Below, piece by piece: positions 8,704 through 47,629 of a stretch of 64,000 nucleotides of DNA. Position 1 is the stretch's first letter. Every line of letters begins with the position of its first letter. Under the pieces are notes generated by a model, which did not search any database, was not told where the DNA came from, and worked only from the letters and a program-made list of their open reading frames with translations. The position numbers and the translations under genes are program-made. Source of the DNA: a virus; IMG/VR virus record IMGVR_UViG_3300042988_000931, positions 7,470 through 71,469 of that record; one strand, 5' to 3'.

Positions 8704-9345
8704 TTACTTCTTTTGCAGTTCGATTTTCTTAACCCGGCCACCAGACGCCCTCATCATGGGCGGACGCATGGGGGGCATGGGAGCGCCACCGGGAGGCATG
8801 CCGGGAGGTCCTGCCATCGGAGGCGGCGGGACAGGAATGGGAACAGCGGCGGGAGGGGGCGGCTCTGCGCCGGGGCCGGGCTGGGCTGCTCCGGGAGCGG
8901 GAGAGCCGATGACAATGTTCACAGTGGTCTTGCCCTTGCCAGTCCTGCCGCCAGAAGCCCGCTTGGCGCGGCCACCGGAGCACATGCCCTCGCCCTCGTC
9001 ATGCTCCTCATCGGCGGGGCTCTTCTCCCACTCCTTGAGGGACATGCCAGCTTTCTTGGCTAGAGCGCGGTCCTCACGCATGTCCTTGGCGCTGCCTTCG
9101 GTAATGCGGCCACCGGACTTGCGGGGAGCCCTGTCGAGTCGGGTGTTGATTTTCCCGCCGCGGGCCATCGTATCCGTTGGGATGCGCTGGGTGTCCTTGG
9201 TCTGGACGTCGCTGGTCAGGGTATCGTCGCCATAGAAGCTCTTGCCGTTGGCGATGCCGGTGCTTTCGCCCCGATATGAGGCCAACTTAGCGGCGTGAGA
9301 CGCCTTGGCTTGTGATTTGTTCGGATGCGCCATGTTAGTTCCCAT
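8704..9345 (-). CDS. Basic, Pro-rich low-complexity protein with five xxxGG motifs (probable internal head protein)
   Basis: MARGGKI, RKSGGRI, MCSGGRA, RASGGRT, RASGGRV; start may be 9333. Confidence 0.65.
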   Translation of the reverse strand: MGTNMAHPNKSQAKASHAAKLASYRGESTGIANGKSFYGDDTLTSDVQTKDTQRIPTDTMARGGKINTRLDRAPRKSGGRITEGSAKDMREDRALAKKAGMSLKEWEKSPADEEHDEGEGMCSGGRAKRASGGRTGKGKTTVNIVIGSPAPGAAQPGPGAEPPPPAAVPIPVPPPPMAGPPGMPPGGAPMPPMRPPMMRASGGRVKKIELQKK

Positions 9346-9748
9346 TGGTTTAAGAGCCGACGGCAGCGCGCCCGGCTATTTCACAGATTTTTCGTGTGGA
9401 TTACAACTTTTACGCGCCGAATCACTCCAAAACTCGCGTTCTGGTTGTATTTTCGACACGTAATGTTATCAAAGGCTTACGGATTGACCTAATCCCACAG
9501 TTTTTTTGCGTGAATTAGTTCAAAGGCCAGTCTGGATTTGGTCAATCATTATTTTTGACCATTATCACGCTGTTTTTGCTCCGTTTTCGATGGTAACGGA
9601 GCCGTAGATTTCAAAAGATGTGCTATGGCTAGCCATAATAACGGTGGGCGGGTGGGATGAAACCCATCCTGATACATGCTGAACTGCCCCAGCACCCAAG
9701 GCATTCGGTATGAGAGACTGCTAACAAGCCCCCAACCACTCAGAACAC

Positions 9749-11509
9749 CTAGACAGACCTGCCCCCGTCAGCATATCTCCGAGCCAGACGTGTAGCGTTC
9801 TCGACTTCCCCGCCCATGGCATATCTCCTTAATATATCTATAATTTCTGGAGAAAATACCACATAATTCCGCGACCCATCGCCTGCGCCGCGCGAGCCTT
9901 GGTCGAGGTATTTGATGCCGGGGATGCCTGCTTCACGAATCGCTTGAGAAGCATACGCCTGTCTGTCCATGCCAGTCTTTGCTGCGGCGTTTGCCCCTGG
10001 TGTTAGATACAAATCAGCATAAGCAGCTTGCGCGCTCCTATCTGGGATTATTGGAGCGCCGCGAGCTTTTGCATATGCCTCCTGAACCGCTTGATGCTGC
10101 TCACTGAGCGGCTTATCCCAATCCAGGAACTGATGCGGCTCGGCGTTGATGTTGACTTCATACATGTGGCCGTCATTCGTGACGTTCACCTTGCCCCGCA
10201 ACTCTTGAAGCTTGCGGATAATCTCATCTTGTCCCGAACGCGACGCCTGTGCAGGCGTCAGCGTCGCACGATGGGCAATTTCATCTGCTAAGGCTTTCTC
10301 AATGTCCCCGCTATGCGCGCTGATAATATCGTCTAGATAGCTATCGCCGGTCGTTCCAACGCGTCTATTCGCCACAACGAACGGGTTGCCATTAACATCA
10401 ATCTTGTTCGCCAAGTCTCGCTTATATTGCTGAGCGACGCCCTCATTCTCCGCGAAATACAGCCCATGCCCATAAGCCTGAGCGCCCTCGCCCGTGCCAA
10501 TCTTGCTCAGGTCAAAGCGGTCAAATTGATGCGGGCTGCCGTGATAAGCCTTGATGGCCCCAGTCATGGGGATAAAGTTCGACGCCATTTCAACCGGGTC
10601 TTGCTTCATCGGGTCAGGAGCGGCCATCAAAGCCCCGTAACCCATGGTCTTGGCCGCATCATACGCAGCGCCGAGTTTCTCACCGAAATGACCAGACGGA
10701 ATTTCCCGTGTCATAGACGGCGGCAAGGCCATCATCATGTCATTCGGGTCGCTCGTCATATACTGCTTGGCGACGTTGTAGGCGTTCTTGATTGGGTCAG
10801 CCCAGCCGCCGTCCTCGAAATGCTGCGGCTCCGGCCAATCCTGCTCCGGGCTCCATTTGGGATAGGGGTCCTTGCCCGGCTCATAAAACGGACTGCGCCC
10901 CTCGGCCCGCCGCTGCTGTGCGTTCTCCCAAGCAGCGTCGGCAATGTCCTGGTCGGGAGGAACGCCATACTCATCCCGCCAAGGGGGGCGAGGCGTCGAA
11001 GCCGACCTAATCAGCCTGTCGAGCTGCTCTCTCGTCAGCCCCTGCGTGACCGTCGGATATTCTCCAAGCCTGTCCCCAGAGCTATACTCGGAAACCACAT
11101 CGCCATTCGGGGACTTGATAGGCCCATAGAACCCAATGTCCTTGAGTTCCCGGCTGTCCATGCGGCCTGTTTCAGGATTATACCGCGGACCCCAAGGGAA
11201 GCGCATGGGCAGCGCCATGCCGCCATCCGCATAGCCCATCGTCCCCCTCAGCGGGGCCTGCTCTATCGGCTCGGCCTGCGCCTGACCCATATAATGCGGT
11301 GGCGCGCCCTGATAGATGGACTTCGCCACATGCAAAGCCTGACCTATCGGGCCTTTGGCTCCAGTAAAAGGTTCAGCAGCGCCCTGAGCCAGCCTCAGCG
11401 CCTCATTGACGTCCCGGTTCCGGTAGACGTCATACAAGTCACGCGCGCCTTCAGACAGCCTCCTGCCGCTCTCAGCGCCGTATTCCTGTATGTCGTCCCA
11501 GAAGCCCAT
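9749..11509 (-). CDS. Modular protein with C-terminal ADP-ribosyltransferase-like (ART-PolyVal type) domain
   Basis: AYHGSPHQFDRFDLSKIGTGEGAQAYGHGLYFAE...GIPGIKYLD...NYVVF; modules separated by YADGG, FEDGG, YAMGG, YADGG. Confidence 0.75.
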   Translation of the reverse strand: MGFWDDIQEYGAESGRRLSEGARDLYDVYRNRDVNEALRLAQGAAEPFTGAKGPIGQALHVAKSIYQGAPPHYMGQAQAEPIEQAPLRGTMGYADGGMALPMRFPWGPRYNPETGRMDSRELKDIGFYGPIKSPNGDVVSEYSSGDRLGEYPTVTQGLTREQLDRLIRSASTPRPPWRDEYGVPPDQDIADAAWENAQQRRAEGRSPFYEPGKDPYPKWSPEQDWPEPQHFEDGGWADPIKNAYNVAKQYMTSDPNDMMMALPPSMTREIPSGHFGEKLGAAYDAAKTMGYGALMAAPDPMKQDPVEMASNFIPMTGAIKAYHGSPHQFDRFDLSKIGTGEGAQAYGHGLYFAENEGVAQQYKRDLANKIDVNGNPFVVANRRVGTTGDSYLDDIISAHSGDIEKALADEIAHRATLTPAQASRSGQDEIIRKLQELRGKVNVTNDGHMYEVNINAEPHQFLDWDKPLSEQHQAVQEAYAKARGAPIIPDRSAQAAYADLYLTPGANAAAKTGMDRQAYASQAIREAGIPGIKYLDQGSRGAGDGSRNYVVFSPEIIDILRRYAMGGEVENATRLARRYADGGRSV

Positions 11510-11510
11510 C

Positions 11511-11726
11511 TTATGCCACAACCCAGTCTTCAGCGAGTATGTCGGTCTGCGAGGCTAGCCAAGGGACAAAATTGCCATCAGCAGTTTTCATGAAAATATA
11601 AGGAAGCGTCATTTCAGACTCAGAGCGCGGCGGTTGAATATCAATCCACATGCCCTTGCCGTTCCATCCCTCACGGGCAACTCTCTGACCGCGCTTAAGA
11701 GCGCGAATAGCCTCACCAAAATCCAT
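11511..11726 (-). CDS. tad2: DUF2829 / Tad2-like anti-defence nucleotide sponge
   Basis: MDFGEAIRALKRGQRVAREGWNGKGMW...VPWLASQTDILAEDW is the DUF2829 signature. Confidence 0.8.
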   Translation of the reverse strand: MDFGEAIRALKRGQRVAREGWNGKGMWIDIQPPRSESEMTLPYIFMKTADGNFVPWLASQTDILAEDWVVA

Positions 11727-12463
11727 TACTCAGCCGCCTGCTTCTGTTCGTGCTGCTCATGCCAAAGGTCAGCCATTTCGCTGATGCTGCCCTTATATTC
11801 GTACTCGCCAACATGTGTCAGGGCGATGTCTGGGTAGAACCAGAACTTGTGCCCAGCCTCACGCGCATTCCTGAACAGCACCAAGTCCTCGCCAAGGTTC
11901 TTCTCAAAATGGCAGTAGCGCTTGATGGTCGGATTGGCAGCGAACTTCTTGGCGTCCTCTTCGGTTATAATGGCAGTGGCCCTTGGCATCTCATCCAACT
12001 CATGCGTGGACGCAATGTCCTCGAACACCTTGCGGTTAATCTTTACAAATCCCAAACCACCACCAGCAGCAGAGAACGCCCCGCACTCGGTCTGCTCGGC
12101 CTCGCCAATCTCAAACGCAACAGCCCACGCCGCCAGCGTGTTCATGTCCAGGTCCTGCTTGCGGCGATAGACCCCGCCCGCAATCGTCAGGTCGGACTGA
12201 ATGAGCCTAACCGCATCCGCAGGGTTCCAGCCCAAATCATCGTCCACAGCCAATAGGTCGGTAAACATAGGGTTTCTCATAAACGAATCGAAGCACTCGT
12301 TCCGAGCGTAGCTTAAATCAGAACAGCCATGAACTATTTTAACTTGAAATTCTATTCCGGCCCTTGAAAAAGCAACCAACGTTCCAAGCATCGACATACA
12401 ATACTGTCTCGTTGGCTGCCTTGCCATTGGCGTAGCTATCAACACGCATTTCTTCTTAGTCAT
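11726..12463 (-). CDS. GT-A fold glycosyltransferase-like protein
   Basis: VLIATPM...ARNECF...VDDDLGW...GEDLVLF...LTHVG. Confidence 0.7.
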   Translation of the reverse strand: MTKKKCVLIATPMARQPTRQYCMSMLGTLVAFSRAGIEFQVKIVHGCSDLSYARNECFDSFMRNPMFTDLLAVDDDLGWNPADAVRLIQSDLTIAGGVYRRKQDLDMNTLAAWAVAFEIGEAEQTECGAFSAAGGGLGFVKINRKVFEDIASTHELDEMPRATAIITEEDAKKFAANPTIKRYCHFEKNLGEDLVLFRNAREAGHKFWFYPDIALTHVGEYEYKGSISEMADLWHEQHEQKQAAE

Positions 12464-12998
12464 GTCTTGCAAATTCCCCATGTAGTTCCTTCGCCGCCTT
12501 GGCGTAGGCTTCCGCAGCTTGCTCGGGTGTGTCCCAGCGCTTGAGATGTATCACCTTGCCATTGATGCGGATTGTTGCCTGCCATTTTCGCGTCCGCCTG
12601 CAATATGAGACGCCCTTATAGCCGCTCTTATTATTGCTCTGCATCGGCCTATTGCACATGTTTTGCGAATTGGTCGCCTTCCTAAGATTGTCGAAGGCGT
12701 CGTTGCAGATATTTAAATCCTTGTGGTCTATGTGATGGTCAGGCCATTCGCCATTCATGTAAAGCCACGCAAGCCGATTGGACAAATACAGCTTACCATT
12801 TATCATTATTTGCCTTCGTCTATCGGCCCTAAACGACCCGGCCATCTTCCCGCAATATCGCGTGTTCCATGTTTTACACGCCTGCTCATTAGGAAAATTT
12901 GAGAGCGGGCGTTCATTCCATGTGAAGATGCCCGTGGACTGGTCATAGTCCAAGAGTTGACGGACGTATTCTGCTGTGAGATTGTTGTTGTAGCGCAT
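12456..12998 (-). CDS. HNH homing endonuclease with AP2 domain
   Basis: RLAWLYMNGEWP..IDHKD..ICNDAFDNLR; NNKSGYKGVS. Confidence 0.9.
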   Translation of the reverse strand: MRYNNNLTAEYVRQLLDYDQSTGIFTWNERPLSNFPNEQACKTWNTRYCGKMAGSFRADRRRQIMINGKLYLSNRLAWLYMNGEWPDHHIDHKDLNICNDAFDNLRKATNSQNMCNRPMQSNNKSGYKGVSYCRRTRKWQATIRINGKVIHLKRWDTPEQAAEAYAKAAKELHGEFARHD

Positions 12999-13066
12999 AT
13001 CTGTTTACTCCAGTGTTGCGTTAGAAACCCGTCCAGCGTTGGCTCGCTTGGCGGGTTTCGTATACC

Positions 13067-15418
13067 CTAGCTAGGTTTCTTCGCCGTCGCAACCTTTTGT
13101 TTAGCGGCTTGCTTGGCCTGTTCTTCCCTCATTTTGAGGTTGGCCTTGTGGGCTTCGGTCTTTTGTTCTAGGCCCGTGGCATGGGCCTGTTGCTTCATCG
13201 CAATGTCTTGCATGTGGCGCTGTTGATTGAGCTGCATGTCCTGCGCCGTCTTCATCTCCTCACGGCGATTGTCGTGATGAGACAGCATCTGCTCATGCGT
13301 CTGTTGCTCACGCTGCAACTGCGCATCGTGCTGATGAATGACCATCTCACGCTGCAATTTAAGCTTTTCAATCGCCAAATCAGCGTTCCGGTCAGCAGCA
13401 TGGTTCTGAGCATCCAAATGCGTCGTCGCCGCCTTGATGGCCGCGTCCTGCTGCCGAAGCTGCATGTCCTGCTCAGACGTCTTGGCTTTAATCTGAACCT
13501 CAGCCAGTTTGGCCTCTGCCGCCTTGTCAGCAGCCTGCGCCTTCAACATCATGCTCGGGTCGCCCTGCATCGGAGGCGGCGCAACCTTCGTAAACAGACT
13601 GTCAATGTCGCTAATCCCAGCCATCTGCATAACACGGCGGTCAATCGCCATCATGTCATACATGGTCGGGTTGGTCATCGCCAGCTCTCTAACCGCAATG
13701 GCCTTCTGCACCCTTACCGTCTGGCTGGCCGTGTTCGGGTCAGACGCTGGCACCAAGTCATTATTGGCCAGCGCCGCAGACACCTCCTGGCTCGCCAGAG
13801 ACGGGTCACGGTTGCCCCTGATGAGAACCTCCGGGTCTTCCTTGAACAGGTCCCGAAGAAGCTTCAGCTCTTTCTGTTGAGCCTGATGCATCCTCTTGTG
13901 AACAGCGCCAAGTATCTTCTCGGCCTGTTCAATCAGAGCTAACGTCGTTCCTACCGGAGCCGCCTGCCGCCCCTCGCCAACAGCCGTATCGGCCGTTCCT
14001 CCAACGCGCTGCGCTGTATTTGATATGTCCTGTATAAGACCAAGAAAACCAGAAGTGACGTCACGATAAGGAAGCGGAGCAACAACATCTTGTATCCTCC
14101 CACCATTCAAGTCGACGGGTGCAAGCTGCCCCGGAGCCACACGGATATTCGTCGTCTGTTGCCTGCCAGTCTCCCGGCCAATCAGTCCACCTGGGAAGTT
14201 CGCTAACATCCCGTTGTCTAAGGCAATGCGCCACGCAGCAGTAAGAGCCCGAGAAGAGTTACCAAGGATATGAAGCAGACCCAGATTAACACCTTCAAAA
14301 GCCGGCACAAACACATATTCGACGAACACCTCTTTGCGCAGACAGGTCTCGTCATCTTCATCCCACCAGCGGCGTATCTCTAGAACTTCCTTGCTATCCT
14401 TTTCTATCGTCACCCGGTAAGGCAACGGAAGGCCAGTTTCCTTGCCCTTCTCCTTGTGCTCATAGCCGGGCAGGTCAAGCTCGCAATAGCACTCATAAAC
14501 AATGCAATCCCGCTCTTCAGGATACAGCGTGCTCTTGGTCTCAACGCCGCTAATGTTGCTGAGCTTCTCGTCAACAACCCGGCTATCGGCAAGGCTGGGA
14601 TAGGTCAAATCAACATCACGCCACGCGCCGGCAACCATCATGCGCTTGACATGCGACTGAGACAGAACAGACCGATGCGTCACCCGAGGGTTGTTCTCAA
14701 TGCTCACCGCGCCACGAGACAGAATGATGTCCTTGCGGTCTATCATCTGGCTAACAGGGCGCCTTCTAATCGGGCACCAGTAAACCTTCTTATACGCCTC
14801 GCCGCCAAAGCCTAGCGAGAAGAACATCCTATCCGTGTCGGGGTAATACTCAGTCGCCGTGACAGTCAGATAATGATTAAAATCCTTGGCCAGCTTATTG
14901 GCCTGGTCTTCTTCCCGCTGTGTATCATCAGAATCGTCACGGACTTTGACCGGCCCATCTGCAGGTAGCATCTCTCCACGCGCATTCGCCTGGAAGCGCA
15001 GGACGGCTTCCAGAAGCAAAGGGTGGCGTACCACTGACATACCTTCTTCGTTGGGCTCCGGCCGCGGCTCCTCCAGCTTGATGCCCAATATGTCCAATCC
15101 ACGCGAAATATCCTCTAGCCTACGGGACTGGTCCTGCTCATCCGTGTCAATTTTCTTAAGCAAATCATCCGCTATATTGCCCAACGCCCCATCATCGAGG
15201 TGTTCAGCCAAATTAGCTTCATGGTCAGACGCATCCTCAGACGGGCCGCTCAGCGCCTTGCCAATCGTGATGATGACGCCACCATCTGGCAACTCAACGC
15301 GCAACGCCTGGTCTTCAGGCGCAATCGTCGCATCATCCGGTATGTCAACGATGGCGTCGCCCAGCGAGGGGCGCTCATCCTCCGGATGCTGTCTAAGATA
15401 CGGAGGCGGTCTATCCAT
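13067..15418 (-). CDS. Portal protein
   Basis: ~780 aa after TerL; HPLLLEAVLRFQA, GEAYKKVYW, PVGTTLALIEQ, long C-terminal coiled coil. Confidence 0.85.
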   Translation of the reverse strand: MDRPPPYLRQHPEDERPSLGDAIVDIPDDATIAPEDQALRVELPDGGVIITIGKALSGPSEDASDHEANLAEHLDDGALGNIADDLLKKIDTDEQDQSRRLEDISRGLDILGIKLEEPRPEPNEEGMSVVRHPLLLEAVLRFQANARGEMLPADGPVKVRDDSDDTQREEDQANKLAKDFNHYLTVTATEYYPDTDRMFFSLGFGGEAYKKVYWCPIRRRPVSQMIDRKDIILSRGAVSIENNPRVTHRSVLSQSHVKRMMVAGAWRDVDLTYPSLADSRVVDEKLSNISGVETKSTLYPEERDCIVYECYCELDLPGYEHKEKGKETGLPLPYRVTIEKDSKEVLEIRRWWDEDDETCLRKEVFVEYVFVPAFEGVNLGLLHILGNSSRALTAAWRIALDNGMLANFPGGLIGRETGRQQTTNIRVAPGQLAPVDLNGGRIQDVVAPLPYRDVTSGFLGLIQDISNTAQRVGGTADTAVGEGRQAAPVGTTLALIEQAEKILGAVHKRMHQAQQKELKLLRDLFKEDPEVLIRGNRDPSLASQEVSAALANNDLVPASDPNTASQTVRVQKAIAVRELAMTNPTMYDMMAIDRRVMQMAGISDIDSLFTKVAPPPMQGDPSMMLKAQAADKAAEAKLAEVQIKAKTSEQDMQLRQQDAAIKAATTHLDAQNHAADRNADLAIEKLKLQREMVIHQHDAQLQREQQTHEQMLSHHDNRREEMKTAQDMQLNQQRHMQDIAMKQQAHATGLEQKTEAHKANLKMREEQAKQAAKQKVATAKKPS

Positions 15419-15629
15419 TACGCTGCTGTCCCCGGAACAATCCAATAGCTGCCATTGTGCTGCATCACAGCTATCTGGCCCGTGTCGAAGTTAAAGCACA
15501 AGACGATGCCGCTAATGGAGTGTTTCATGCCGGCGCTCCTGCATCGCATCATCAGTCATGGACATCGTTACCTGATGGTTCAAAAAGCCCTCAATGTCAT
15601 CAACACGCTGCTCAAGCGTCGGGCCGTCG

Positions 15630-15884: not shown

Positions 15885-15898
15885 GCTGTCGCGCTCGG

Positions 15899-16162
15899 TT
15901 ATGGCTTCACATCCTTAACGACATCCGCATAGACCGGCGCGTTCTTCAGGTCCTTTGTCGCTGCGTTGTAAAGCGCCTCACGCTGCTGCGGATAGGCAAG
16001 CCCCAGCAAGCCAATCAGCTTCTCAGCCTGCAAATGCGTCAGACGAATGCGCTTGTCATCCTGATACAGGTCAATGCCATCCTCATACGGCACAAACCGA
16101 ATGACGGGGATGCTCTTGAAAGCGCCGAGCGGGTCTTCGCCGATTTGTGCTTCGTCAATCAT
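15899..16162 (-). CDS. Hypothetical protein
   Basis: 87 aa, ATGA overlap with TerL stop. Confidence 0.55.
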   Translation of the reverse strand: MIDEAQIGEDPLGAFKSIPVIRFVPYEDGIDLYQDDKRIRLTHLQAEKLIGLLGLAYPQQREALYNAATKDLKNAPVYADVVKDVKP

Positions 16163-18154: not shown

Positions 18155-18192
18155 TCATAACTGCTTGTTATGTCTAGCTCAGTGCATTTTAT

Positions 18193-18243: not shown

Positions 18244-18271
18244 GGCTACATAGACAAACGGGAGCAAGCAA

Positions 18272-18984: not shown

Positions 18985-19004
18985 AAACCCCTAGCATTTT
19001 TCTC

Positions 19005-19033: not shown

Positions 19034-19065
19034 CACATTGTCAGAAGCAAACAGGAGCAACCGAC

Positions 19066-19517: not shown

Positions 19518-19769
19518 ATGAAATCCATCGCAGTCACAGCCGTAAACGCCGCAACCCTGCTGATAGCCCTCATCGGCGCAGCATCAGCCCAGCCCTATGG
19601 GTATGGACGCGGGTATGGATATCCACCGCCCCCTCCGCAACCAGTCTATGTCACGCCGTATCAGGCGCCTATCGTCAGGCCAATCCCGATGCCAAATCCA
19701 TATGGAGAAGTTAGAGATGATTTGCCGTATTCAGGAAAGCCTAATTGCTCACTCCCATACGGCTGCTAA
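19518..19769 (+). CDS. Secreted Pro/Tyr/Gly-rich small protein
   Basis: GGGAG RBS; signal peptide ending ASA; C-terminal Cys pair. Confidence 0.7.
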   Translation: MKSIAVTAVNAATLLIALIGAASAQPYGYGRGYGYPPPPPQPVYVTPYQAPIVRPIPMPNPYGEVRDDLPYSGKPNCSLPYGC

Positions 19770-34978: not shown

Positions 34979-34979
34979 C

Positions 34980-39373: not shown

Positions 39374-39375
39374 GG

Positions 39376-39804: not shown

Positions 39805-39805
39805 G

Positions 39806-40498: not shown

Positions 40499-41313
40499 TG
40501 GTTCAGAGCCTCCAGCTCGTCAACGCGGGCCGACAATTCTTTGACGGCTTCAATGAGAACGCCAACGATGTTGCCATAGGCCACAGAATAAAGCCCATCT
40601 GCGTTTTGGATGACGACTTCCGGGATGACCTCATTAACCTCTTGGGCAATGACGCCAACTCGCTGTTCTCCCAGCGCGTTAGCATATCTCACGCCCTCAA
40701 GGCGGCTGATGAGATTTAGGGCGTCTTCAATGGGGCGGATATTTGATTTAATGCGCCTGTCTGATAGCGCCGTAATATCCCCAGCAGCAGTGAGCGACCC
40801 GGAGAGCGTTACATTGCCGTTCGTGCAAACAAGCTGAGAGCCGCCGACTGATAGGCCGTTTGTGGGAAGGGTTAATCCTCCCGTCAGCGTGCCGCCCGCC
40901 TTTGAGAGATAGGAACCGCTATCGGCCAAATAGACATTCGTCCCATCTGACCAGATAAATGTCGTCGTATTGATGGACGTGGTTGGCATCGTAACCCACG
41001 TCGCCCCAGCACTTCTGATTGTGACGGTTACTGCGCTGCTGATATTATTAGCGCATATCCATGAGCCAATGCCGCTGGCCGGGAGCGTGACGACGACATT
41101 CGTCGCTGGCGTTCCCTCAAATACCAATACTGCGCTTCTGGCTTGGTCTGTCGTCAGGGTGACGTTGCCAGCGGAGAGATTGACATGGGTGTGGCCCGCA
41201 ATCGCCGCGTCTATCTCGTCAAAATTGAGATTTGTCGGAATGTCCCAGGTCCCGACATTCGACCCATTCGCTGGCTTGGTGAGGTAGCCTTTGTATCCTG
41301 TGTAATCAACCAA
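40495..41313 (-). CDS. Tail needle/fibre with C-terminal peptidase S74 intramolecular chaperone
   Basis: SDRRIKSNI...L.GVRY...GVIAQEV...V.YGN...LIEAVKEL; TTG start after GGAGG. Confidence 0.85.
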   Translation of the reverse strand: MVDYTGYKGYLTKPANGSNVGTWDIPTNLNFDEIDAAIAGHTHVNLSAGNVTLTTDQARSAVLVFEGTPATNVVVTLPASGIGSWICANNISSAVTVTIRSAGATWVTMPTTSINTTTFIWSDGTNVYLADSGSYLSKAGGTLTGGLTLPTNGLSVGGSQLVCTNGNVTLSGSLTAAGDITALSDRRIKSNIRPIEDALNLISRLEGVRYANALGEQRVGVIAQEVNEVIPEVVIQNADGLYSVAYGNIVGVLIEAVKELSARVDELEALNQ

Positions 41314-42994
41314 TTTGGCCTCCTCTGGCAAGGCGCAGGGCGTTTGCGATAGCCTCGTCGTCATAATCTTGGAGGTAATTAAACTGGCCTCCAAGTTTGC
41401 GGCATTCCCGCTCGGCAAGTTTGGTGTAGTCGGGAATTCTGCCCCCAGAAGCCCGTTCCAGTGCTCTTGGCGCTTCATATCCGCCGAGCAATGCGCCCAT
41501 CTGGTTCATGTATTTGCCGGTGGCAGGTTCATATGGGACATGTCCGCGTGCAATGAGGTGCTTAAGGGCCTCTATGTCCTTCTCCCCGACCTTTACGGCG
41601 CCAGTTTTCATGGCGTTACCAGCAAGACCTGTCCCAATTATCCCGGCTGCCGTGACTGGATGCCCCATCATAGCTGCGGCGATGGCTCCTGGGACCTCTC
41701 CCTTTCCAGCCAAGCCGGATAGAGCAACAGAATTGCCAATCAATCGAAGCATATTACGCATGCTGAGCTTGCCGCCGCCACTTTGGACTTTCTTAATAGC
41801 CGCCTTCTCTGCCTCACTCCATCGACCAGGGAATTTTAGGTCCTTATTAAGGATTTTGTTAAACTCCTGACGGATGGTGTTATCAAGATTGCCGCCACTA
41901 TATGTTGATTCGGCGCGGCGCTGGGCCTTGACGTATGCGGTCTCTATGTCATCTAACTTTTTAGAGATGCTCCACGTTTTACGGGCGTTTTGCAAAAAGT
42001 CTTTTGCCTCGTTCACAGCATCAGGGTGCATATTAGCATCATCAAAATGATGTTCGACATTGTCGAGGATTTTGTCGATTTCATCTCTTGCGACATATCC
42101 AGTTCGACGTGTCGCATCGTCAGCGTCGGTCAGAAGATTTTTGTTTATGGATTGGCGGAGCTTCTCAAGGTCGTGGAATGAAACAGGCCCGCCATTGTCG
42201 GCGACCTCCTTCATTTTATCCATTGCAGAAAGAACCCCTGTCGATTTTTGCGACGACAAAAATGGACTATAACCGCTCTTCTCTTCCAGCGCCCTTTGCG
42301 TGTTTTCTCTCATACCTGCGAGAGAACTTGGCTTTAGATTTATATTGTTCTGGAAGGCTTGTTTATAGAGGCCCTGTCCTTCAGCCTTTTTGTCAGCAGC
42401 CGTGATGACCTTTTCCGCCTTCGGAATGAGGGTTGGGGCTTCGCCAGTAAGTTCTGAGACTTTGCCAGTCGGTATCCGCCTGCCGATAGCGTTTACAGCC
42501 GGAGCCAATGCCCGCCCAGCCAAAGCACCCGCTCCGGCGCCAGCGAGGCCAAGGCCAGCGCCAGTAACAGCGCCTTCACCCGTTCCTGTCTCACCATAAC
42601 CGGCAGCGGCCCCAGAGGCAGCGCCAGCACCGAGAGCAGCCGGAATGGTCGCCAGTCTGGCTGGGAGGAGCGCCGAAGCGCCGATGCCCGCTCCCGTGCC
42701 AATCATGGACGCAGTGGGATGGGCCTCCTGCGCAGCGGACTGCTTGGACTTGATGCGCTGATACTCTTCCGGGTAGCTCGTGCCATGTATCATCGAGCCG
42801 ATTTTAGCCCGAGCAGCCGTCGCCATTCCCATCGTCGGAACGTCGAGATAGTTCGAGCCGAACGCCTCTAGCGCAGAGCCGCCAGATGGTTTGGAAGAAG
42901 CGGCAGGTTGCTCCCCCTCCAAGACAAACCCCTCCGGAGGCGGCGGGGCTTGATTTTCGAGTTCAAAGCCTTCCGGAGGCGCAGGAATATTCAT
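41306..42994 (-). CDS. Internal virion (ejection) protein
   Basis: PPEGF repeats, Gly/Ala hydrophobic segments, helical; C-terminal RASGGRI and LARGG. Confidence 0.7.
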   Translation of the reverse strand: MNIPAPPEGFELENQAPPPPEGFVLEGEQPAASSKPSGGSALEAFGSNYLDVPTMGMATAARAKIGSMIHGTSYPEEYQRIKSKQSAAQEAHPTASMIGTGAGIGASALLPARLATIPAALGAGAASGAAAGYGETGTGEGAVTGAGLGLAGAGAGALAGRALAPAVNAIGRRIPTGKVSELTGEAPTLIPKAEKVITAADKKAEGQGLYKQAFQNNINLKPSSLAGMRENTQRALEEKSGYSPFLSSQKSTGVLSAMDKMKEVADNGGPVSFHDLEKLRQSINKNLLTDADDATRRTGYVARDEIDKILDNVEHHFDDANMHPDAVNEAKDFLQNARKTWSISKKLDDIETAYVKAQRRAESTYSGGNLDNTIRQEFNKILNKDLKFPGRWSEAEKAAIKKVQSGGGKLSMRNMLRLIGNSVALSGLAGKGEVPGAIAAAMMGHPVTAAGIIGTGLAGNAMKTGAVKVGEKDIEALKHLIARGHVPYEPATGKYMNQMGALLGGYEAPRALERASGGRIPDYTKLAERECRKLGGQFNYLQDYDDEAIANALRLARGGQIG

Positions 42995-45900
42995 CACATC
43001 GGCTCCCATTTGCCGTTACGGAAGATGACACGTTCGCCTGTCTTCGGGTTGATGGCTGTTTGACCACCAGAAGAACCCGAACCACCACCGAGAGATTTTT
43101 TATCCGCGTCGGTAAGGAGCGGATGCTTTTCGGCCCAATCGCTGATGTAGCTATCCCACCCCGCGTCCAATCCGCCATGCGTCTGGGCGTATTCATTCGC
43201 CATCTTGAAGACTTCATGCTGTCTGTCGACGACGCGCCGCTGCAGCCCGATAAGTTTACGGTTTGCATCTGGTGTAAGGTCGACATTCGGCATTCTTGCC
43301 TTGATAAACGCGACGTCAGCATTCGACACACCAGAGCCAAGCGAACCGTTCTGCGCATCCAAAACCAGCTTGTTGGATAGCGATTTGAACAAGTCTGTCG
43401 GCGTTGCAGCTTCAGGGTCGACGAGGCCGATTGCCGAACCGAGTTTCTTGACTGTGTTAAATTGTTCCGCGCCGACGCCAGAATAGAAGTTTTTGTTGCT
43501 CATCAGCTCTTCCATCTGGTCGAGCGTTGCTTTCGTCTGTTTAGCGATTTCGTCGGATTTCTTCAGGCCAGAATATGCGTCAGCGTATTGCTTATTCTCA
43601 GCCTCTTGTTTTTTGACCTCAACCTGGTTTGACGCCTCAAGCATTTTGTTCTGACGCTCTCTCTCGTCTTTGAGATGCGCGTCGATGGCGGCTATTCTTA
43701 GTTCGGTGGACTTTATTTGAGCTGGTGTATAGCCAGGGTCATTAATAAGCGCCTCACGCTGCGCCATCAGGTTGTCTATTGCCGAATTTACCGGAGCGGC
43801 AGCAGCCGTCTGAACAGGAGCGCCTGCCGCGGTGGCGGAGGCTCCAGAGGGCGCAACAGAGACAGACCCTGTGGCGCCAGCGGCGCGCCTTCTGTCCCAT
43901 TCTCTTGCGGATTCAGCCGCAGCCTGCTTCTGAGCCATTTCAAGCTTGCGCTCTTCAATCTGGCTCATAATGTTCTGGACTTGCGCCGCCTTATACGGGT
44001 CGTTTTCCGCAGCTCTAGCCTCTTGCTCAGCGCCCATGGCGGAAAGGCCCGCTAGACCGCCTTGGCCAATAGCCTCGCCAAGCGTTGGGGCGCCAGACGC
44101 CAGCATGCCAAGACCAGCCGACAAGAGCCCGCCCCAGATATCGGGTCCGCTGTCCTGTGCAGAACTTGCCGTCTGGGCAACTGGAGCCGCCGGAGCGGCA
44201 GGAGCCGCCTGCGCCTGAGAGGGTGAGAACAACCCAGATAGGCCGTTGCCGATTGCGCGGAGGGGCTCCGGCCAGTCAATGCCGTCATCGTCAGCGGGGG
44301 CTTCACCCAATCCGCCTTCAGCGAAGTGAATACGGCCGCCACGCGCTGCAAAGTCCATGTCACTAACGCTCTCGCCCAGCGCCATGAGCGAGTCGCTGAT
44401 ACTGGGAGTGGGCGGCGGCGCGGATATGCCTGCGTCTTGGATATTCGTGATGTCACCTGGGCGAGTCGGCGGAAGAGGAGCGCCACCGAGGTCATTTGGC
44501 CGCTGGGGCGGAGTAGGGGTGTTTGAGGCGAACTGCGTGTTCCCAGAAGGCGCGCCATATGCCTTGGCAAACATCTGCATGTATTTAGGGGCATTCGTGC
44601 CGAGAACGTCTGTCGCACTCTGGTGCTTGCGCCAGCCGGGACCACCAATCCAGTTCGCCGCAGCAAGTCTGGGGTCGCCACCTTCTTTTTTTATGTAATT
44701 CAGGCCCTGAACTTTGGCCACAGCATCTTGAATGCTCTTATCAGCTAGGAACTTTTGGGGCGTCAGGTTGTCGAAGCCTGCCGCTTTTCCCCAAGACGGA
44801 ATGTTTGCTCCCATAACCTGATAGGCGCCATATGGGATATCCCCTGTCCGGCTTTTAGGTCCCGTAATGCCATATCGTCCGCCGCTCTCGATTTGACGGA
44901 TTGCAGCGAGCCAGCGGTCAATGTCTACCCCGCCATCAGCAAAGCCAACCCGCCCGCCATCGGCCCTGTCTTCAGGTCTGATGCCTTGGTAGGGGTCTGC
45001 GCCGACAATTGAACCGAGCCAGCTTCCAAGGTCAGAGTATGACTTTTGAGCCATGCTACCGAGCCCGGAATAGACATTTGCCGGAGCTTCTGAAAATTGC
45101 ATAGGACCAACATTACGGCCGAGGTTCTGATTTCCAGGACGGGCCATAATCGGGATATCCCCCGCCGTTAGACCGGGGGAGACAGAAGGAAGCCTCTGAC
45201 CGCCCAAATCGACACGGTCTGAGCGCCATTCGGGGTGCGCCCATATCTTTTCAATGCCGCCGAGGCTGAAGGTCTCCGCAGGCGCTTCCGGCATCGGAGG
45301 GCCAGAGCGAGGGCCAATCGTAATCGGAGGAAGTTCCTGCTTCATCGGAGGCCCTTCCGGCTCCCGCTGCGGCTGCTGCCCTTCTCCCGTTGGCGCTTCC
45401 GCGCTGACCAGCACCTTGCCTCTCTTGAACAGGTCGGACAGCGCCTTGCCAGCCTTGCTCGCGTCAAATTGACTCTTACGACGCTCCGTCGGACCCAAGA
45501 ATTTAATATCCGGAAACTCTGGGCGAGAGGCTTGGATGGGAGCTACCGGCAGGCCATAAAGACCACCGGTAAACTGGCCCCCGCCCTCAGCAAACCCAAT
45601 ACGACCGCCCTCGCTCTTGAACTTCACCTCTGGAAATTCTGGCTTTACAGGCGAGAGAGGTGCAACCGGGAGACCGAATAACCCACCCTGCGCAGGCGGG
45701 GCCACGTCGCCACCATCATCAGGAACATCAAGAAGGCCGCCATCTGCATACGGAATGCGCCCGCCTTCATTCATCGCAAACATCTTGCCGAGCAGGCCAA
45801 TGCCCGACAGAAGGCCGCCCGCGAGCTGACCACCGCTGTTTGTTTTCTGCTCCGGAGAGGACGAATAGCCCTGCGTCGTGCCGCCCAGCAACGGGCCAAT

Positions 45901-46662
45901 GCCCTGCTGAATGCCCGCCAGCCACTGCGTTTGGGCATACGGGAATTGTTTCTCAAGCTGCCACTGCTGATAGGCCGTCCCCAACTTCTGCTGCTCAAGC
46001 GCCTGCTGTTCCTTGCCGGCGTTGTTGAGCATGCCCGTCTCAGCCATGCGGTTCTGCAAGCCCTGCTGCCCCAGATTGGCGACCTGATTGGCGCCAGACA
46101 TCTGGAAATTGGCGTTGGCAAGCGCCTGCGACTGAGCATTCGAATAGCCCTGCTGCATCAGTTCGGCGATGGTCTTGTCGCGGGTCAGGTTTTGCTGCCC
46201 CTGCAACGCAGCGCGGGAAATAGCCCCGCGGTCGCCACCCATGCCGCCAGCCCGAATGATATTGCTTTGCAATTCATTTTGCTGCTGAGCGTTCTGATTG
46301 TTCATCCAGTCCAGCGTCGTGCCGACCACGTTCTGCTGATACGGGTTCATGTATTGCTGGACAGTCTGCCCATAGTTCTCCGGACCCATCGAAGCCATTG
46401 AGCCGAGCGTCTGACCTGTGGCCGTGTCGATGTAGGGCTGGGAATAGCCCTGCAGCCCCTGCGTCTGCTGAAACGACTGCTGCTGGAACGGAGAAAACTC
46501 CGCCACAAGGGGCTTGTTATACGCCTCGAATGGCGTCGAGGCGACATTCGCTGCACGCTGAAGCGTCGTGTAGTATTGCGCAGCCGCAAACGGGTCCGGC
46601 ATGCTCCGAGTCGCGCTATAGCTCATTTGTTGGCCGCCGCCGCCGCCGCCCTTGCTGCCCAT
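42994..46662 (-). CDS. Large ejection protein with lytic transglycosylase-like domain
   Basis: Gln-rich N-terminus (YMNPYQQNV); AIRQIESGG.Y...YGAYQVM...QDAVA...W.GG; four tandem pairs of GG motifs. Confidence 0.8.
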   Translation of the reverse strand: MGSKGGGGGGQQMSYSATRSMPDPFAAAQYYTTLQRAANVASTPFEAYNKPLVAEFSPFQQQSFQQTQGLQGYSQPYIDTATGQTLGSMASMGPENYGQTVQQYMNPYQQNVVGTTLDWMNNQNAQQQNELQSNIIRAGGMGGDRGAISRAALQGQQNLTRDKTIAELMQQGYSNAQSQALANANFQMSGANQVANLGQQGLQNRMAETGMLNNAGKEQQALEQQKLGTAYQQWQLEKQFPYAQTQWLAGIQQGIGPLLGGTTQGYSSSPEQKTNSGGQLAGGLLSGIGLLGKMFAMNEGGRIPYADGGLLDVPDDGGDVAPPAQGGLFGLPVAPLSPVKPEFPEVKFKSEGGRIGFAEGGGQFTGGLYGLPVAPIQASRPEFPDIKFLGPTERRKSQFDASKAGKALSDLFKRGKVLVSAEAPTGEGQQPQREPEGPPMKQELPPITIGPRSGPPMPEAPAETFSLGGIEKIWAHPEWRSDRVDLGGQRLPSVSPGLTAGDIPIMARPGNQNLGRNVGPMQFSEAPANVYSGLGSMAQKSYSDLGSWLGSIVGADPYQGIRPEDRADGGRVGFADGGVDIDRWLAAIRQIESGGRYGITGPKSRTGDIPYGAYQVMGANIPSWGKAAGFDNLTPQKFLADKSIQDAVAKVQGLNYIKKEGGDPRLAAANWIGGPGWRKHQSATDVLGTNAPKYMQMFAKAYGAPSGNTQFASNTPTPPQRPNDLGGAPLPPTRPGDITNIQDAGISAPPPTPSISDSLMALGESVSDMDFAARGGRIHFAEGGLGEAPADDDGIDWPEPLRAIGNGLSGLFSPSQAQAAPAAPAAPVAQTASSAQDSGPDIWGGLLSAGLGMLASGAPTLGEAIGQGGLAGLSAMGAEQEARAAENDPYKAAQVQNIMSQIEERKLEMAQKQAAAESAREWDRRRAAGATGSVSVAPSGASATAAGAPVQTAAAAPVNSAIDNLMAQREALINDPGYTPAQIKSTELRIAAIDAHLKDERERQNKMLEASNQVEVKKQEAENKQYADAYSGLKKSDEIAKQTKATLDQMEELMSNKNFYSGVGAEQFNTVKKLGSAIGLVDPEAATPTDLFKSLSNKLVLDAQNGSLGSGVSNADVAFIKARMPNVDLTPDANRKLIGLQRRVVDRQHEVFKMANEYAQTHGGLDAGWDSYISDWAEKHPLLTDADKKSLGGGSGSSGGQTAINPKTGERVIFRNGKWEPM

Positions 46663-47138
46663 TACGCTACTCCGTCCACATTAGAGGGCTTATACATAAA
46701 GAACGCACCAACCGGAGGGATTTGCCTCCGATAGAGACGAACCTTCGCCTCAGTGCGTTCGTTCGATACAACGCCCATCATCAGGTCAATGCCGAGCCCA
46801 TCGGAACAGTGCTTTGCAAAACAGATAAGCTGCTTTGCGAAATCAGATTTCCGGAATTCAGGGTCGACAAAATTGCTCAATTCCAGCAACTGCGTATCGC
46901 GCGAATACCATACCTCATCCAATCTGAGGTAGACGTAGCCCTTAAGCTTCTCGCCCCTGCTTCCGATAACGCCAATCATGGACGCCTGACGGTGAACAGC
47001 CGCCCAGATGCTCTGGGAGACTTTCATGTCATCCATTTCATGCTCGCCAGCTTCCTCCCAGGCGAGGACCATCAGTCGGAAAATCTCGTCGCAGTCTTCC
47101 GGAGTGGCCATGCGAACATCAGAGCATTTTTCAAACAT
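46662..47138 (-). CDS. GNAT-fold acetyltransferase-like protein
   Basis: VRMATPED...FVDPEFRKS...RLY. Confidence 0.65.
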   Translation of the reverse strand: MFEKCSDVRMATPEDCDEIFRLMVLAWEEAGEHEMDDMKVSQSIWAAVHRQASMIGVIGSRGEKLKGYVYLRLDEVWYSRDTQLLELSNFVDPEFRKSDFAKQLICFAKHCSDGLGIDLMMGVVSNERTEAKVRLYRRQIPPVGAFFMYKPSNVDGVA

Positions 47139-47140
47139 AT

Positions 47141-47629
47141 TCAGCCTTTCGCCGGTCCGGGGAGACTCTTGAGCGTCTTGATGTGCTTCTTACGCTGGCC
47201 CACAACGAACTTGTCGAGTATTGAGTGGCCTTTTTTGATGTTGCCGTTGCCGATGGCCGTAACAGTCTCTGGGTCGATAATATATTCACCACCGGCAACA
47301 ACGGCTGGAACTGCCCCGCTATGAGCGGGACCCCCGAGGCCGTATTTGTGAATTAGTCCGCCTGCTGCTCGTCCAACCGGACTGTCAGGCCCCCACATCT
47401 TCTTGATGACCTCGTATCCGGCTTCCGTGTTTCCCTCTCCCAGCGAGGAGACAACATCAGCCGGGATGACATACGCCCCACCAGGAACATGGACATTGAG
47501 CCGGTCAGTCCTGCCGGGGACGGGAGAGCGGATTTCTCCCGTATAGACCTTGCCGCCAGAGGCACGCCGTTCTCTGGCGACACGCATGGCTGCGGCTATC
47601 GCTTGGTCTCTACCCTTAAGGAGCGCCAT
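47141..47629 (-). CDS. Two-repeat protein associated with GG motifs
   Basis: VPGGAYVIPADVVSSLGEGN and VAGGEYIIDPETVTAIGNGN; RASGGKV, RAAGGLI. Confidence 0.7.
   Translation of the reverse strand: MALLKGRDQAIAAAMRVARERRASGGKVYTGEIRSPVPGRTDRLNVHVPGGAYVIPADVVSSLGEGNTEAGYEVIKKMWGPDSPVGRAAGGLIHKYGLGGPAHSGAVPAVVAGGEYIIDPETVTAIGNGNIKKGHSILDKFVVGQRKKHIKTLKSLPGPAKG

What the first reader, a model, noticed from the sequence alone, without database searches (positions are those of the whole stretch)
8704..47629. Shared xxxGG motif divides five probable virion-internal proteins: candidate cargo sorting or processing code
Seen: about 20 copies of [FYMRK]-[AS]-x-G-G-(R/K)-(I/V)-like motifs concentrated in five genes at two distant loci. 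8704-9345: MARGGKI, RKSGGRI, MCSGGRA, RASGGRT, RASGGRV. 9749-11509: YADGG, FEDGG, YAMGG, YADGG. 41306-42994: RASGGRI, LARGG. 42994-46662: four tandem pairs NEGGRIPYADGG, SEGGRIGFAEGG, ADGGRVGFADGG, ARGGRIHFAEGG. 47141-47629: RASGGKV, RAAGGLI. The motifs lie in linkers and bracket folded domains (transglycosylase, ART). Established: di-glycine sites are cleaved by adenovirus protease and ubiquitin-like proteases. Inference: a common cleavage or capsid-loading signal that turns ejection proteins into polyproteins delivering separate effectors.
Basis: partly seen in the sequence, partly recalled or inferred. Interest (0 to 1): 0.85.

Follow-up and report, generated by a model that had tools for sequence, protein, structure and literature searches.

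The report
Shared glycine tag on phage cargo
A short, strictly conserved glycine-glycine peptide marks the ends and domain joints of the proteins that this short-tailed phage and a very large group of uncultured relatives carry inside their capsids, and it is probably a loading or processing label of a kind not described before.

Summary
The window is most of a 71.5-kb podophage genome. The motif [R/Y/F/M]-A-x-G-G-[R/K]-[I/V] occurs 18 times in the five named proteins against 1.5 expected from shuffling. It is not enriched in the rest of the proteome. All five are head-internal or ejection proteins. Relatives keep the motif in the same three protein classes: post-portal polyvalent proteins, a small basic Pro-rich protein before the scaffold gene, and post-nozzle ejection proteins. 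It sits at protein termini and at Pfam or AlphaFold domain borders, often beside an amphipathic "ALRLAR" helix.

The tandem form GG-R-[IV]-G-[YF]-A-[DE]-GG occurs in at least 120 IMG/VR contigs. A reversed-order control pattern gives 8.

My best reading (0.4) is a modular cargo-loading or docking tag that stays at the joints when tagged modules fuse. Proteolytic processing (0.3) remains a live rival, favoured by a portal-lysozyme fusion that carries the tag at its junction.

Earlier notes of this scan describe similar xxxGG joints in crass-like phages. crAss001 cargo protein gp45 shows A-x-G-G at the edges of its cryo-EM-resolved docked segments. No binding or cleavage was tested; the complex-prediction tool never ran.

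The parts
8704..9345 (-). P0001, a 213-aa basic, Pro-rich head-block protein with 5 tags: MARGGKI 9148-9168, RKSGGRI 9103-9123, MCSGGRA 8965-8985, RASGGRT 8941-8961, RASGGRV 8731-8751. It is the densest carrier.
   Evidence: Its family has 84 proteins holding 380 tags against 36.4 expected; 75 of 84 have 3 or more.
9749..11521 (-). P0002, a 590-aa polyvalent-type protein with an ART-PolyVal domain (about residues 321-567). Tags: YADGG 11213-11233, FEDGG 10799-10819, YAMGG 9803-9823, and helix plus YADGG at the C-terminus 9752-9796.
   Evidence: Pfam ART-PolyVal E 3.5e-7, 31.5 bits against a cut-off of 31.2. AF2 model. 15,006 domain relatives.
41306..43009 (-). P0003, a 567-aa ejection-module protein with a C-terminal tag module: RASGGRI 41435-41455 and ALRLARGGQIG at the end, 41309-41341.
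   Evidence: The C-terminal module is conserved in 5 of 7 putative homologues read.
42994..46662 (-). P0004, a 1222-aa ejection protein. It has a phrog_4287 N-terminal domain and a transglycosylase-like domain at about residues 586-717. Four tandem tags lie at 45730-45774, 45574-45618, 44923-44967 and 44305-44349.
   Evidence: Internal ~50-aa repeat.
47141..47629 (-). P0005, a 162-aa protein after the nozzle gene. An N-terminal helix plus RRASGGKV lies at 47546-47593 and RAAGGLI at 47351-47371.
   Evidence: In an alignment of 30 family members R19, G25 and G26 are invariant. AF2 model. No fold match.
13067..15445 (-). Portal protein (phrog_1216). It is a candidate receptor and marks the start of the head-cargo gene block.
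   Evidence: Relatives found.
1949..2911 (-). Scaffolding protein: acidic N-terminus, coiled coil, conserved middle domain and a C-terminal helix pair. It is a candidate receptor and has no protease domain.
1..645 (-). Major capsid protein (Mu gpT-like, 304 aa; it continues upstream of the window). It is a candidate receptor.
   Evidence: More than 7189 homologues, the best 120 being 77-100% identical.
46662..47138 (-). GNAT-like 158-aa protein between P0005 and P0004. It carries no tag and keeps this position even in tag-poor relatives.
47890..50139 (-). Nozzle-like virion protein (phrog_3287), which precedes the ejection-protein block.

Best explanation
The motif is a modular cargo tag.

Shown:
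- An 8-residue unit, [R/Y/F/M]-[A/K]-x-G-G-[R/K/x]-[I/V]-(G), is often joined to an amphipathic helix of the type [D/N]ALR[L/I]A[R/K].
- It is confined to proteins of the head-cargo and ejection gene blocks of a very large podophage lineage. The lineage shares portal phrog_1216, nozzle phrog_3287 and a Mu gpT-like capsid protein.
- It sits at N- or C-termini and at domain joints.
- It is selected at the protein level.

Inferred:
- Each packaged module carries its own tag. The tag is a flexible Gly-Gly hinge flanked by two short strand-forming halves.
- The tag docks the module onto a conserved inner component of the procapsid: the unusually conserved capsid protein, the scaffold's conserved middle domain, or the portal.
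- When tagged modules are fused into polyvalent proteins, the tags remain at the joints. This explains why they 'bracket' domains without any need for cleavage.
- The tag-dense small basic protein (P0001 family) would act as a multivalent adaptor inside the head.
For: 1. Restriction to cargo. In this genome 18 of 22 matches lie in the five proteins. In 13 related loci, 23 of 270 ORFs hold 102 tags (4.7 per 1000 aa). The other 247 ORFs hold 21 (0.36 per 1000 aa).

2. Terminal position.
- P0001, P0002 and P0003 end 3-12 residues after a tag, and P0005 starts with helix plus tag.
- Polyvalent proteins of relatives start with helix plus tag at residues 5-35.
- The tag-poor HTVC023P keeps single copies only at termini.
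- 5 of 7 P0003-like C-termini share the module.

3. No protease family in the whole genome. The gene before the capsid gene encodes a protease-less scaffold.

4. The densest carriers have no enzyme domain: 84 P0001-family proteins hold 380 tags against 36.4 expected.

5. The tag goes with the phage lineage, not with the cargo domain. Of the 149 best ART-domain relatives, 25 have 3 or more tags. Giant polyvalent proteins of other lineages (7242, 5566 and 4248 aa) are at chance.

6. Protein-level selection. Synonymous codons vary like the background. Unselected positions of 100 tandem instances agree: G at the middle position in 75, A or K at -2 in 77.

7. The helix pattern is about 7-fold enriched in carriers, and 14 of 21 copies lie within 22 residues of a tag.

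8. Precedent in a solved virion. In crAss001 gp45 the portal-bound domain 425-552 starts at A425 of an A-F-G-G. The tail-barrel helix 214-245 starts 4 residues after S-A-Y-G-G (my translation; residue numbers from passages of PMC10172136).
Against: - No receptor has been identified and no binding was tested.
- A portal-lysozyme fusion (L044, a 1134-aa ORF without stops) keeps the tandem tag between the portal and the lysozyme. A docking tag seems superfluous there, whereas release by cleavage would make sense.
- Position at domain borders fits processing equally well.
- The P0005 AF2 model shows the tag only as a low-confidence hinge.
- The strand-pairing idea rests on sequence logic only.
- The crAss001 parallel is post hoc, and its motif differs in detail.
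Confidence: 0.4

Rival explanations
1. The tags are proteolytic processing sites. Cargo proteins are polyproteins cut at or next to G-G, by an unrecognised phage protease or a host protease, during head maturation or after ejection. This frees the individual domains. The tag could be both a loading label and a cut site, as in the T4 capsid targeting sequence (recalled).
For: - The tags sit exactly at domain borders. In MW202675.1: tag51-GNAT-tag217-M15 peptidase-tag412-?-tag555-ART-tag735. DUF6321 is flanked on both sides. The ART fold ends at the tag.
- The portal-lysozyme fusion has the tag at the junction. The lysozyme could hardly leave the head uncut.
- Processing of polyvalent proteins was predicted by Iyer et al. 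2017 (passages of PMC5512222).
- Gly-Gly sites are used by several viral and bacterial proteases (recalled).
Against: - No protease family was found in this genome.
- P0005, the only conserved unknown that travels with the tag, is absent from tag-bearing low-GC relatives L103 and L105.
- Tags only 3-12 residues from C-termini, and 5-15 tags in small domain-less proteins, give no useful products.
- Many sites would expose N-terminal Arg or Lys, which the bacterial N-end rule marks for degradation (established knowledge, inference).
- The crAss001 authors model gp45 as an uncut chain and report peptides from the connecting region (passages only).
Confidence: 0.3
2. The tag is a structural joint or self-pairing element with no separate receptor. 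It would be a Gly-Gly beta-turn whose two flanks pair, either as a hairpin or between chains. The tandem strand R-I-G-Y-A-D is self-complementary when antiparallel: R with D, I with A, G with Y. This would let cargo chains zip together into a compact core or condensate, and let domains unfold and refold one by one during passage through the tail.
For: - Successive tags are never closer than 8 residues, and 14 of 104 gaps are exactly 8.
- The middle position of the tandem form is G in 75 of 100 instances.
- The folded repeats of P0005 contain beta-hairpins with G-G turns.
- Conservation across contigs of 31-71% GC, while the portal and capsid proteins diverge to 30-40% identity, is easy to explain if the tag pairs with itself.
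Against: - This is pure sequence logic. No model or experiment shows the pairing.
- The residue before G-G and the one after it do not covary as a strict salt bridge.
- A mere hinge would not need such sequence conservation.
Confidence: 0.2
3. The tags are DNA-level recombination joints that promote shuffling of cargo modules. The peptide would be a by-product.
For: The tags lie where modules are exchanged between relatives.
Against: Codons of the 18 copies vary synonymously in the same proportions as the background (Gly GGC/GGT/GGG/GGA, Ala all four codons). The peptide is conserved from 31% to 71% GC.
Confidence: 0.03
4. The pattern is a chance or compositional effect of Gly-rich linkers.
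For: GG dipeptides are mildly raised in the five proteins (58 against 41.9).
Against: - 0 of 5000 shuffles reach the observed counts.
- The tags are conserved at aligned positions in relatives.
- At least 120 IMG/VR stretches match the tandem pattern, against 8 for the reversed-order control.
Confidence: 0.01

Closest known systems
T4 capsid targeting sequence of internal proteins (recalled knowledge; the review listing was not read)
   Same: It is a short peptide shared by otherwise unrelated proteins, and it sends them into the prohead interior.
   Different: The T4 signal is N-terminal only, works through the scaffolding core and is removed by the prohead protease. Here the tag is N-terminal, C-terminal and internal, is repeated up to 15 times, and no protease gene is present.
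Encapsulin cargo-loading peptides (recalled; the paper PMC13669383 was seen only in the search listing)
   Same: They are short Gly-flanked terminal peptides that dock cargo onto the inside of an HK97-fold shell. No cleavage is needed, and they are portable between cargo proteins.
   Different: The sequence is different. They are usually a single C-terminal copy and are not known in tailed-phage capsids. Binding of this tag to the capsid protein is untested.
Gly-Gly-X polyprotein processing by adenovirus-type and related viral cysteine proteases, and double-glycine leader peptidases (recalled)
   Same: The Gly-Gly core lies in linkers between functional units. In the leader-peptide case an amphipathic helix precedes Gly-Gly.
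   Different: No such protease was detected in this genome. The residues flanking Gly-Gly differ. Many copies are at extreme C-termini.
Cargo protein C1 (gp45) of Bacteroides phage crAss001, Bayfield et al. 2023, PMC10172136 (passages read)
   Same: It is an ejection or cargo protein encoded after the tail gatekeeper gene. It has 8 A-x-G-G against 1.44 expected (0 of 5000 shuffles). The two segments seen docked on the portal and in the tail barrel begin at, or 4 residues after, such a motif. Its C-terminus carries K-A-K-G-G-K-V.
   Different: The aromatic residue sits directly before G-G rather than three residues before. No sequence homology was shown: the protein-atlas score of P0005 to the crAss cargo-1 cluster is 0.79, which is only a lead. 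The paper does not mention the motif.
Phage polyvalent proteins (Iyer et al. 2017, PMC5512222; passages read)
   Same: P0002 and the post-portal giants of relatives are members. They carry ART-PolyVal, PBECR5, InPase, lysozyme and M15 domains next to the portal gene.
   Different: The words 'linker' and 'glycine' do not occur in that paper's main text. It attributes processing to zincin-like peptidase domains, which are absent here.

Membership tests
Phage polyvalent proteins (P0002 and the post-portal proteins of relatives) | Several unrelated effector domains in one late-gene protein next to head genes | tested here: met
   P0002 has ART-PolyVal. Relatives combine GNAT+M15+ART, PBECR5, InPase, lysozyme, DUF4214 and DUF6321 directly after the portal gene.
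Podovirus ejection (internal virion) proteins, T7 gp14-16 / P22 gp7-20-16 type | Genes placed after the adaptor and nozzle genes and before the fibre genes; one large protein with a cell-wall-cutting domain | tested here: met
   The gene order is adaptors x3, nozzle-like phrog_3287, 92 aa, P0005, GNAT, P0004 (phrog_4287 'DNA ejection protein' plus phrog_24990), P0003, fibre. Residues 579-725 of P0004 match phage glycosylase regions. No virion data exist.
T4-type capsid targeting sequence | N-terminal position only | tested here: not met
   The tags are also C-terminal and internal.
T4-type capsid targeting sequence | Removal by a phage prohead protease | tested here: not met
   No protease family was found among the proteins scanned from the whole genome. 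Cleavage itself is not testable here.
Encapsulin-type cargo-loading peptide | Short terminal peptide on a flexible linker, portable between unrelated cargo | tested here: met
   The tags are terminal and lie in low-pLDDT stretches. They are shared by unrelated domains.
Encapsulin-type cargo-loading peptide | Binds the inner face of the HK97-fold shell protein | not testable with these tools
   The complex prediction with capsid protein plus scaffold plus a tag segment could not be run (see Tried and rejected).
Gly-Gly-X viral polyprotein processing | Gly-Gly at the scissile position between functional units | tested here: inconclusive
   Gly-Gly lies at domain borders, but no cut has been shown.
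Gly-Gly-X viral polyprotein processing | A cognate cysteine protease encoded by the virus | tested here: not met
   There was no peptidase hit in Pfam or PHROGs for any ORF scanned. An unrecognised fold cannot be excluded.
RTX-type calcium-binding glycine repeats | Long tandem arrays of a nine-residue Gly/Asp repeat | tested here: not met
   The period is 8 and arrays rarely exceed two tandem units (14 of 104 gaps are exactly 8). No Pfam hit.

The most novel reading that the evidence does not exclude
A portable 8-13-residue 'cargo code' would be used by one of the most abundant uncultured podophage lineages, and in a related form by crassviruses. The same Gly-Gly tag would address any protein module to the capsid interior. 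It would also define the joints at which the cargo chain is held on the portal or capsid, threaded, and perhaps cut during ejection. It would be a phage counterpart of encapsulin loading peptides. It would also explain how polyvalent effector proteins can swap modules freely and still be packaged.
Probability: 0.25. Interest if true: 0.85.

Novelty: new variant of a known kind. Interest (0 to 1): 0.7.

Why it matters
How tailed phages select which proteins go into the head and are injected with the DNA is known for only a few model phages. A short, portable and widely conserved tag would make that question testable: fuse the tag to a reporter, or mutate Gly-Gly. It would allow cargo proteins, and therefore injected anti-defence effectors such as the ART protein here, to be predicted from sequence in thousands of uncultured genomes. 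It would also give a handle for loading foreign proteins into phage capsids.

The lineage is large. Its capsid protein has more than 7189 relatives at E<=1e-10, the best 120 being 77-100% identical. It includes relatives of the HTVC023P-type pelagiphages.

Tried and rejected
1. Complex prediction. The job was capsid protein alignment A2 + scaffold alignment A3 + P0004 residues 336-375. The queue was full or the machine gave no answer each time, so it never ran and nothing can be said about binding.

2. Solved structures. The P0005 alignment, P0004 and P0003 gave nothing below E 0.1. For the P0005 model, Foldseek's best hit was E 1.4 and the VIA-align wide search gave a best Z of 3.2. No fold could be assigned.

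3. Literature string searches. YADGG, FADGG, FAEGG, RASGGR and YAEGG were searched. GYADGG, GFADGG, GFAEGG, GYAEGG, GGRIG and GGRVG were searched. No phage paper turned up. The searches cover open-access text only, and supplements are closed.

4. The HTVC023P-type pelagiphage paper PMC9599517 does not contain 'internal virion', 'ejection' or 'polyvalent'.

5. P0005 as the universal receptor or protease: rejected. It accompanies 9 of 11 phrog_4287 carriers. It is missing between the nozzle gene and the carrier in tag-bearing L103 and L105.

6. Recombination-joint idea: rejected on codon variation.

7. Cellular genomes. Only 21 of 120 matches have G at the middle position or 3 or more tags in the ORF, and most lie in short ORFs of high-GC genomes. 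These are mostly chance matches.

8. Cultured relatives with virion proteomes. None were found for P0005 (2 uncultured records). A low-GC carrier had no match. phiM5, which has a particle proteome, lacks the tag.

9. The 355-aa ORF as a Mu gpI-like protease: rejected. It is a scaffold.


Full report
**What the window is.** The window is bases 7470-71469 of a single 71,469-bp contig. PHROGs and Pfam scans of 53 ORFs, and of the remaining ORFs, show a short-tailed phage. Identified genes:
- large terminase (16159-17844)
- portal, phrog_1216 (13067-15445)
- Mu gpT-like capsid protein (ending at 645)
- three SU10-type adaptor paralogues (49964-52074)
- nozzle-like protein, phrog_3287 (47890-50139)
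- GP4-type fibre proteins

Almost all structural genes lie on the minus strand and wrap round the contig ends.

- Head-cargo part, gene order: portal, HNH, 251 aa, Tad2-like, P0002, P0001, 1644-aa Ig-domain protein, GroES-like, scaffold, capsid.
- Ejection part, gene order: nozzle, 92 aa, P0005, GNAT, P0004, P0003, fibre.

All 21 listed copies are present. In a non-overlapping ORF set of the whole genome (104 ORFs, 22,543 aa), [FYRKM][ASC]xGG matches 22 times. Eighteen of these lie in the five proteins, which make up 2,754 aa. Shuffling each of the five proteins 5000 times gives 1.49 +/- 1.21, and none of the 5000 shuffles reaches 18. Three narrower patterns behave alike. The remaining ORFs have 4 matches against 5.7 expected. 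The plain GG count is only mildly raised (58 against 41.9), so glycine content does not explain the result.

**Conservation in close relatives.** The nearest annotated record, MW202675.1, has the same ejection module. It keeps tags at the aligned places: the N-terminal helix plus tag of the P0005 homologue, degenerate tandem tags in the large ejection protein, and a tag about 50 residues from the C-terminus of the P0003 homologue.
- Its three post-portal polyvalent proteins and its 382-aa P0001 homologue carry 2-12 copies each. Portal, capsid protein and adaptor carry none, and the 290-aa scaffold-like protein was not checked.
- Seven IMG/VR loci found through P0005 behave alike. So do the 9 longest of the 20 loci found through the portal.
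- Over 13 such loci, 23 of 270 ORFs hold 102 tags (4.7 per 1000 aa). The other 247 ORFs hold 21 (0.36 per 1000 aa).
- The P0005 family has 281 members at E<=0.001 among 569 candidates. In an alignment of 30 of them, the Arg and both Gly of the first tag are invariant.
- The P0001 family has 84 proteins with 380 tags against 36.4 expected, and 75 of the 84 have three or more.

**Anatomy of the tag.** A logo of 119 distinct instances gives these frequencies:
- position -6: R in 46
- position -3: R/Y/K/F/M
- position -2: A in 80, K in 32
- position -1: D in 32
- then G-G
- position +1: R/K in 48
- position +2: V/I in 52

A second element travels with the tag. It is an amphipathic helix of the type [D/N]ALR[L/I]A[R/K], placed just before or just after it. 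A pattern for this helix occurs at 0.80 per 1000 aa in carriers against 0.11 elsewhere, and 14 of 21 copies lie within 22 residues of a tag. Successive tags are never closer than 8 residues. Fourteen of 104 gaps are exactly 8. Codons of the copies vary synonymously like the background, so selection acts on the peptide and not on the DNA.

**Position relative to domains.**
- In the AF2 model of P0002 (pTM 0.53), the ART fold (residues 321-567, pLDDT above 90) ends in a strand whose last residue is Y567 of YAMGG. The next helix, 576-586, is the ATRLARRYADG element. YADGG 97-101 and FEDGG 235-239 lie inside stretches with pLDDT below 50.
- In the P0005 model (pLDDT 77), the tag 20-25 is a low-confidence hinge between an N-terminal helix and two hairpin-helix repeats.
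- The 739-aa protein of MW202675.1 reads tag51, GNAT 64-121, tag217, M15 294-386, tag412, unknown, tag555, ART 569-721, tag735.
- DUF6321 is flanked on both sides in four of the five polyvalent proteins that carry it; in the fifth (L025) it runs to the C-terminus and has a tag only before it.
- Many carriers begin or end with the module. Of 28 carriers, the first G-G lies within 60 residues of the start in 11, and the last lies within 40 residues of the end in 6. The stricter pattern used there misses some terminal copies such as LARGGQIG.

**The tag is far more widespread than this clade.** The same codons in reversed order gave 8.
- In the first 80 loci, 79 of 82 matches lie in ORFs of 300 aa or more, and 48 of those ORFs have three or more tags.
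- Contig GC ranges from 31 to 71%.
- In 100 distinct instances from all 120 loci, the unselected positions agree with the logo: G in the middle in 75, and A or K at -2 in 77.
- PHROGs on 60 of the 77 carrier ORFs of 300-2000 aa gave phrog_4287 'DNA ejection protein' in 11. Polyvalent-type families (DarB-like, minor head, ParB-like) and lysin-type families appeared in others. Portal phrog_1216 appeared in 2. Thirty-four had no family.
- Low-GC contigs carry the same terminase, portal and nozzle families. They also carry pelagiphage-type ferrochelatase and 2OG oxygenase genes. Their carriers lie between terminase and portal, or after the nozzle.
- The cultured HTVC023P has only single vestigial copies at three protein termini. 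phiM5 and CRP-902 have none in their ejection modules.
- In cellular genomes the pattern behaves like chance.
- Among the 149 best relatives of the ART domain, 25 have three or more tags. Giant polyvalent proteins of other lineages do not. The tag therefore belongs to the virion lineage and not to the cargo domain.

**Is there a protease?** None of the proteins scanned from the whole genome hits a peptidase family. The 355-aa ORF before the capsid gene has an acidic N-terminus, a coiled coil, a conserved middle domain and a C-terminal helix pair. It aligns with the equivalent proteins of relatives, so it is a scaffold. P0005 has no known fold. It accompanies 9 of 11 phrog_4287 carriers but is absent from tag-bearing L103 and L105. 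It cannot therefore be the general receptor or protease.

**Weighing the mechanisms.** For a loading or docking tag that persists at fusion joints:
- the terminal copies
- the exclusive association with cargo and with one virion lineage
- the tag-dense domain-less P0001 family
- the lack of a protease
- the amphipathic helix typical of docking peptides

For processing:
- the exact border positions
- a portal-lysozyme fusion in L044. This is one 1134-aa ORF without stops, with portal 192-710, tandem tag 826-838 and Phage_lysozyme 985-1127. Release by cutting is the simplest way out of the head for that lysozyme.

A third reading is a self-pairing beta element. It rests on the exact 8-residue period, on the Gly at the middle of the tandem strand, and on conservation that exceeds that of portal (30% identity to HTVC023P) and capsid protein (40%).

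The capsid protein is nevertheless remarkably constrained. It has more than 7189 relatives at E<=1e-10 among 8000 scored, the best 120 being 77-100% identical over 304 residues. That makes it my first candidate receptor. I could not test any pairing because the complex-prediction job never ran.

**Link to a solved virion and to earlier notes of this scan.** Two earlier notes (e1-5975408, e1-5947359) describe xxxGG joints in cargo proteins of crass-like phages, so a similar feature was seen before on other DNA. I checked the reference phage crAss001 myself.
- Its cargo protein gp45 has 8 A-x-G-G against 1.44 expected (0 of 5000 shuffles).
- By the residue numbers given in PMC10172136 (passages read), the portal-bound domain 425-552 starts at A425 of A-F-G-G. 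It is followed by F-A-Y-G-G at 559-563.
- The tail-barrel helix 214-245 starts four residues after S-A-Y-G-G (206-210). It is followed by F-A-E-G-G at 260-264.
- The protein ends with K-A-K-G-G-K-V.
- The authors model one uncut chain spanning portal and tail, and they do not mention the motif.

This comparison is post hoc and the motif differs in detail. It does show that, in the one virion where such cargo has been seen, the ordered docked pieces begin at these joints.

**Verdict.** No paper found by my string searches describes the tag (open-access text only), and the polyvalent-protein paper does not mention it. I rate it a new variant of a known kind (capsid-targeting or cargo-loading peptides, or viral processing sites), with the mechanism still open.

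Noticed in passing
window 11511-11726 (-): A 71-aa ORF inside the head-gene block, between the 251-aa protein and the ART protein, matches the Tad2-like Thoeris anti-defence domain (Pfam E 1.7e-28).
   Followed up: no
window 12456-12998, 19766-20311, 21816-22361, 34932-35363, 53456-54037; L033 6405-7079: The density of homing-type endonucleases is unusual. There are three HNH(-AP2) paralogues, one further HNH, one GIY-YIG and one endonuclease VII. Several are inserted between structural genes.
   Followed up: no
window 3758-8692 (-): A 1644-aa protein with seven He_PIG Ig-like repeats and a DUF4082 domain lies between P0001 and the scaffold gene. The relatives read have no gene there. It carries no tag.
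   Followed up: no
L033 7200-8114 (capsid gene; it ends at window 645): The capsid protein is extraordinarily conserved and abundant. More than 7189 proteins score E<=1e-10 among 8000 scored, and the best 120 are 77-100% identical and nearly all exactly 304 aa long.
   Followed up: partly
window about 45450-45775 (P0004 residues 297-403): A tandem ~50-aa repeat is present. Each copy holds a tandem tag, then GGL[FY]GLPVAP, then PEFP[ED][VI]KF (BLASTP of the two halves E 1e-12). The second and third elements may be further short motifs.
   Followed up: partly
L044 1-3402 (+), L079 4263-7199 (+): The portal protein is fused in one reading frame to a C-terminal extension with the tandem tag. In L044 a Phage_lysozyme domain follows.
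   Followed up: partly
L016, L028, L030, L025, L013 (post-portal proteins): Small conserved mini-modules lie between tags. They include DUF6321 and a ~55-residue basic module beginning VWDKPRPK and ending NMRAAKA before the next G-G.
   Followed up: no
window 31640-32209 (-) and 2919-3347 (-): A GcrA-like cell-cycle regulator gene (Pfam E 5.5e-24) hints at an alphaproteobacterial host. A GroES-like 142-aa ORF precedes the scaffold gene, and equivalent genes are annotated GroES in relatives.
   Followed up: no
window 61334-63481 (-): A 715-aa protein has a long Gly-rich stretch (residues about 68-290) that accounts for many plain xxGG matches but none of the full tag. It has no family hit.
   Followed up: no
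L283 11988-14516 (crAss001 gp45): A-x-G-G motifs are enriched (8 against 1.44 expected). They sit at the edges of the two cryo-EM-resolved segments of this cargo protein.
   Followed up: partly
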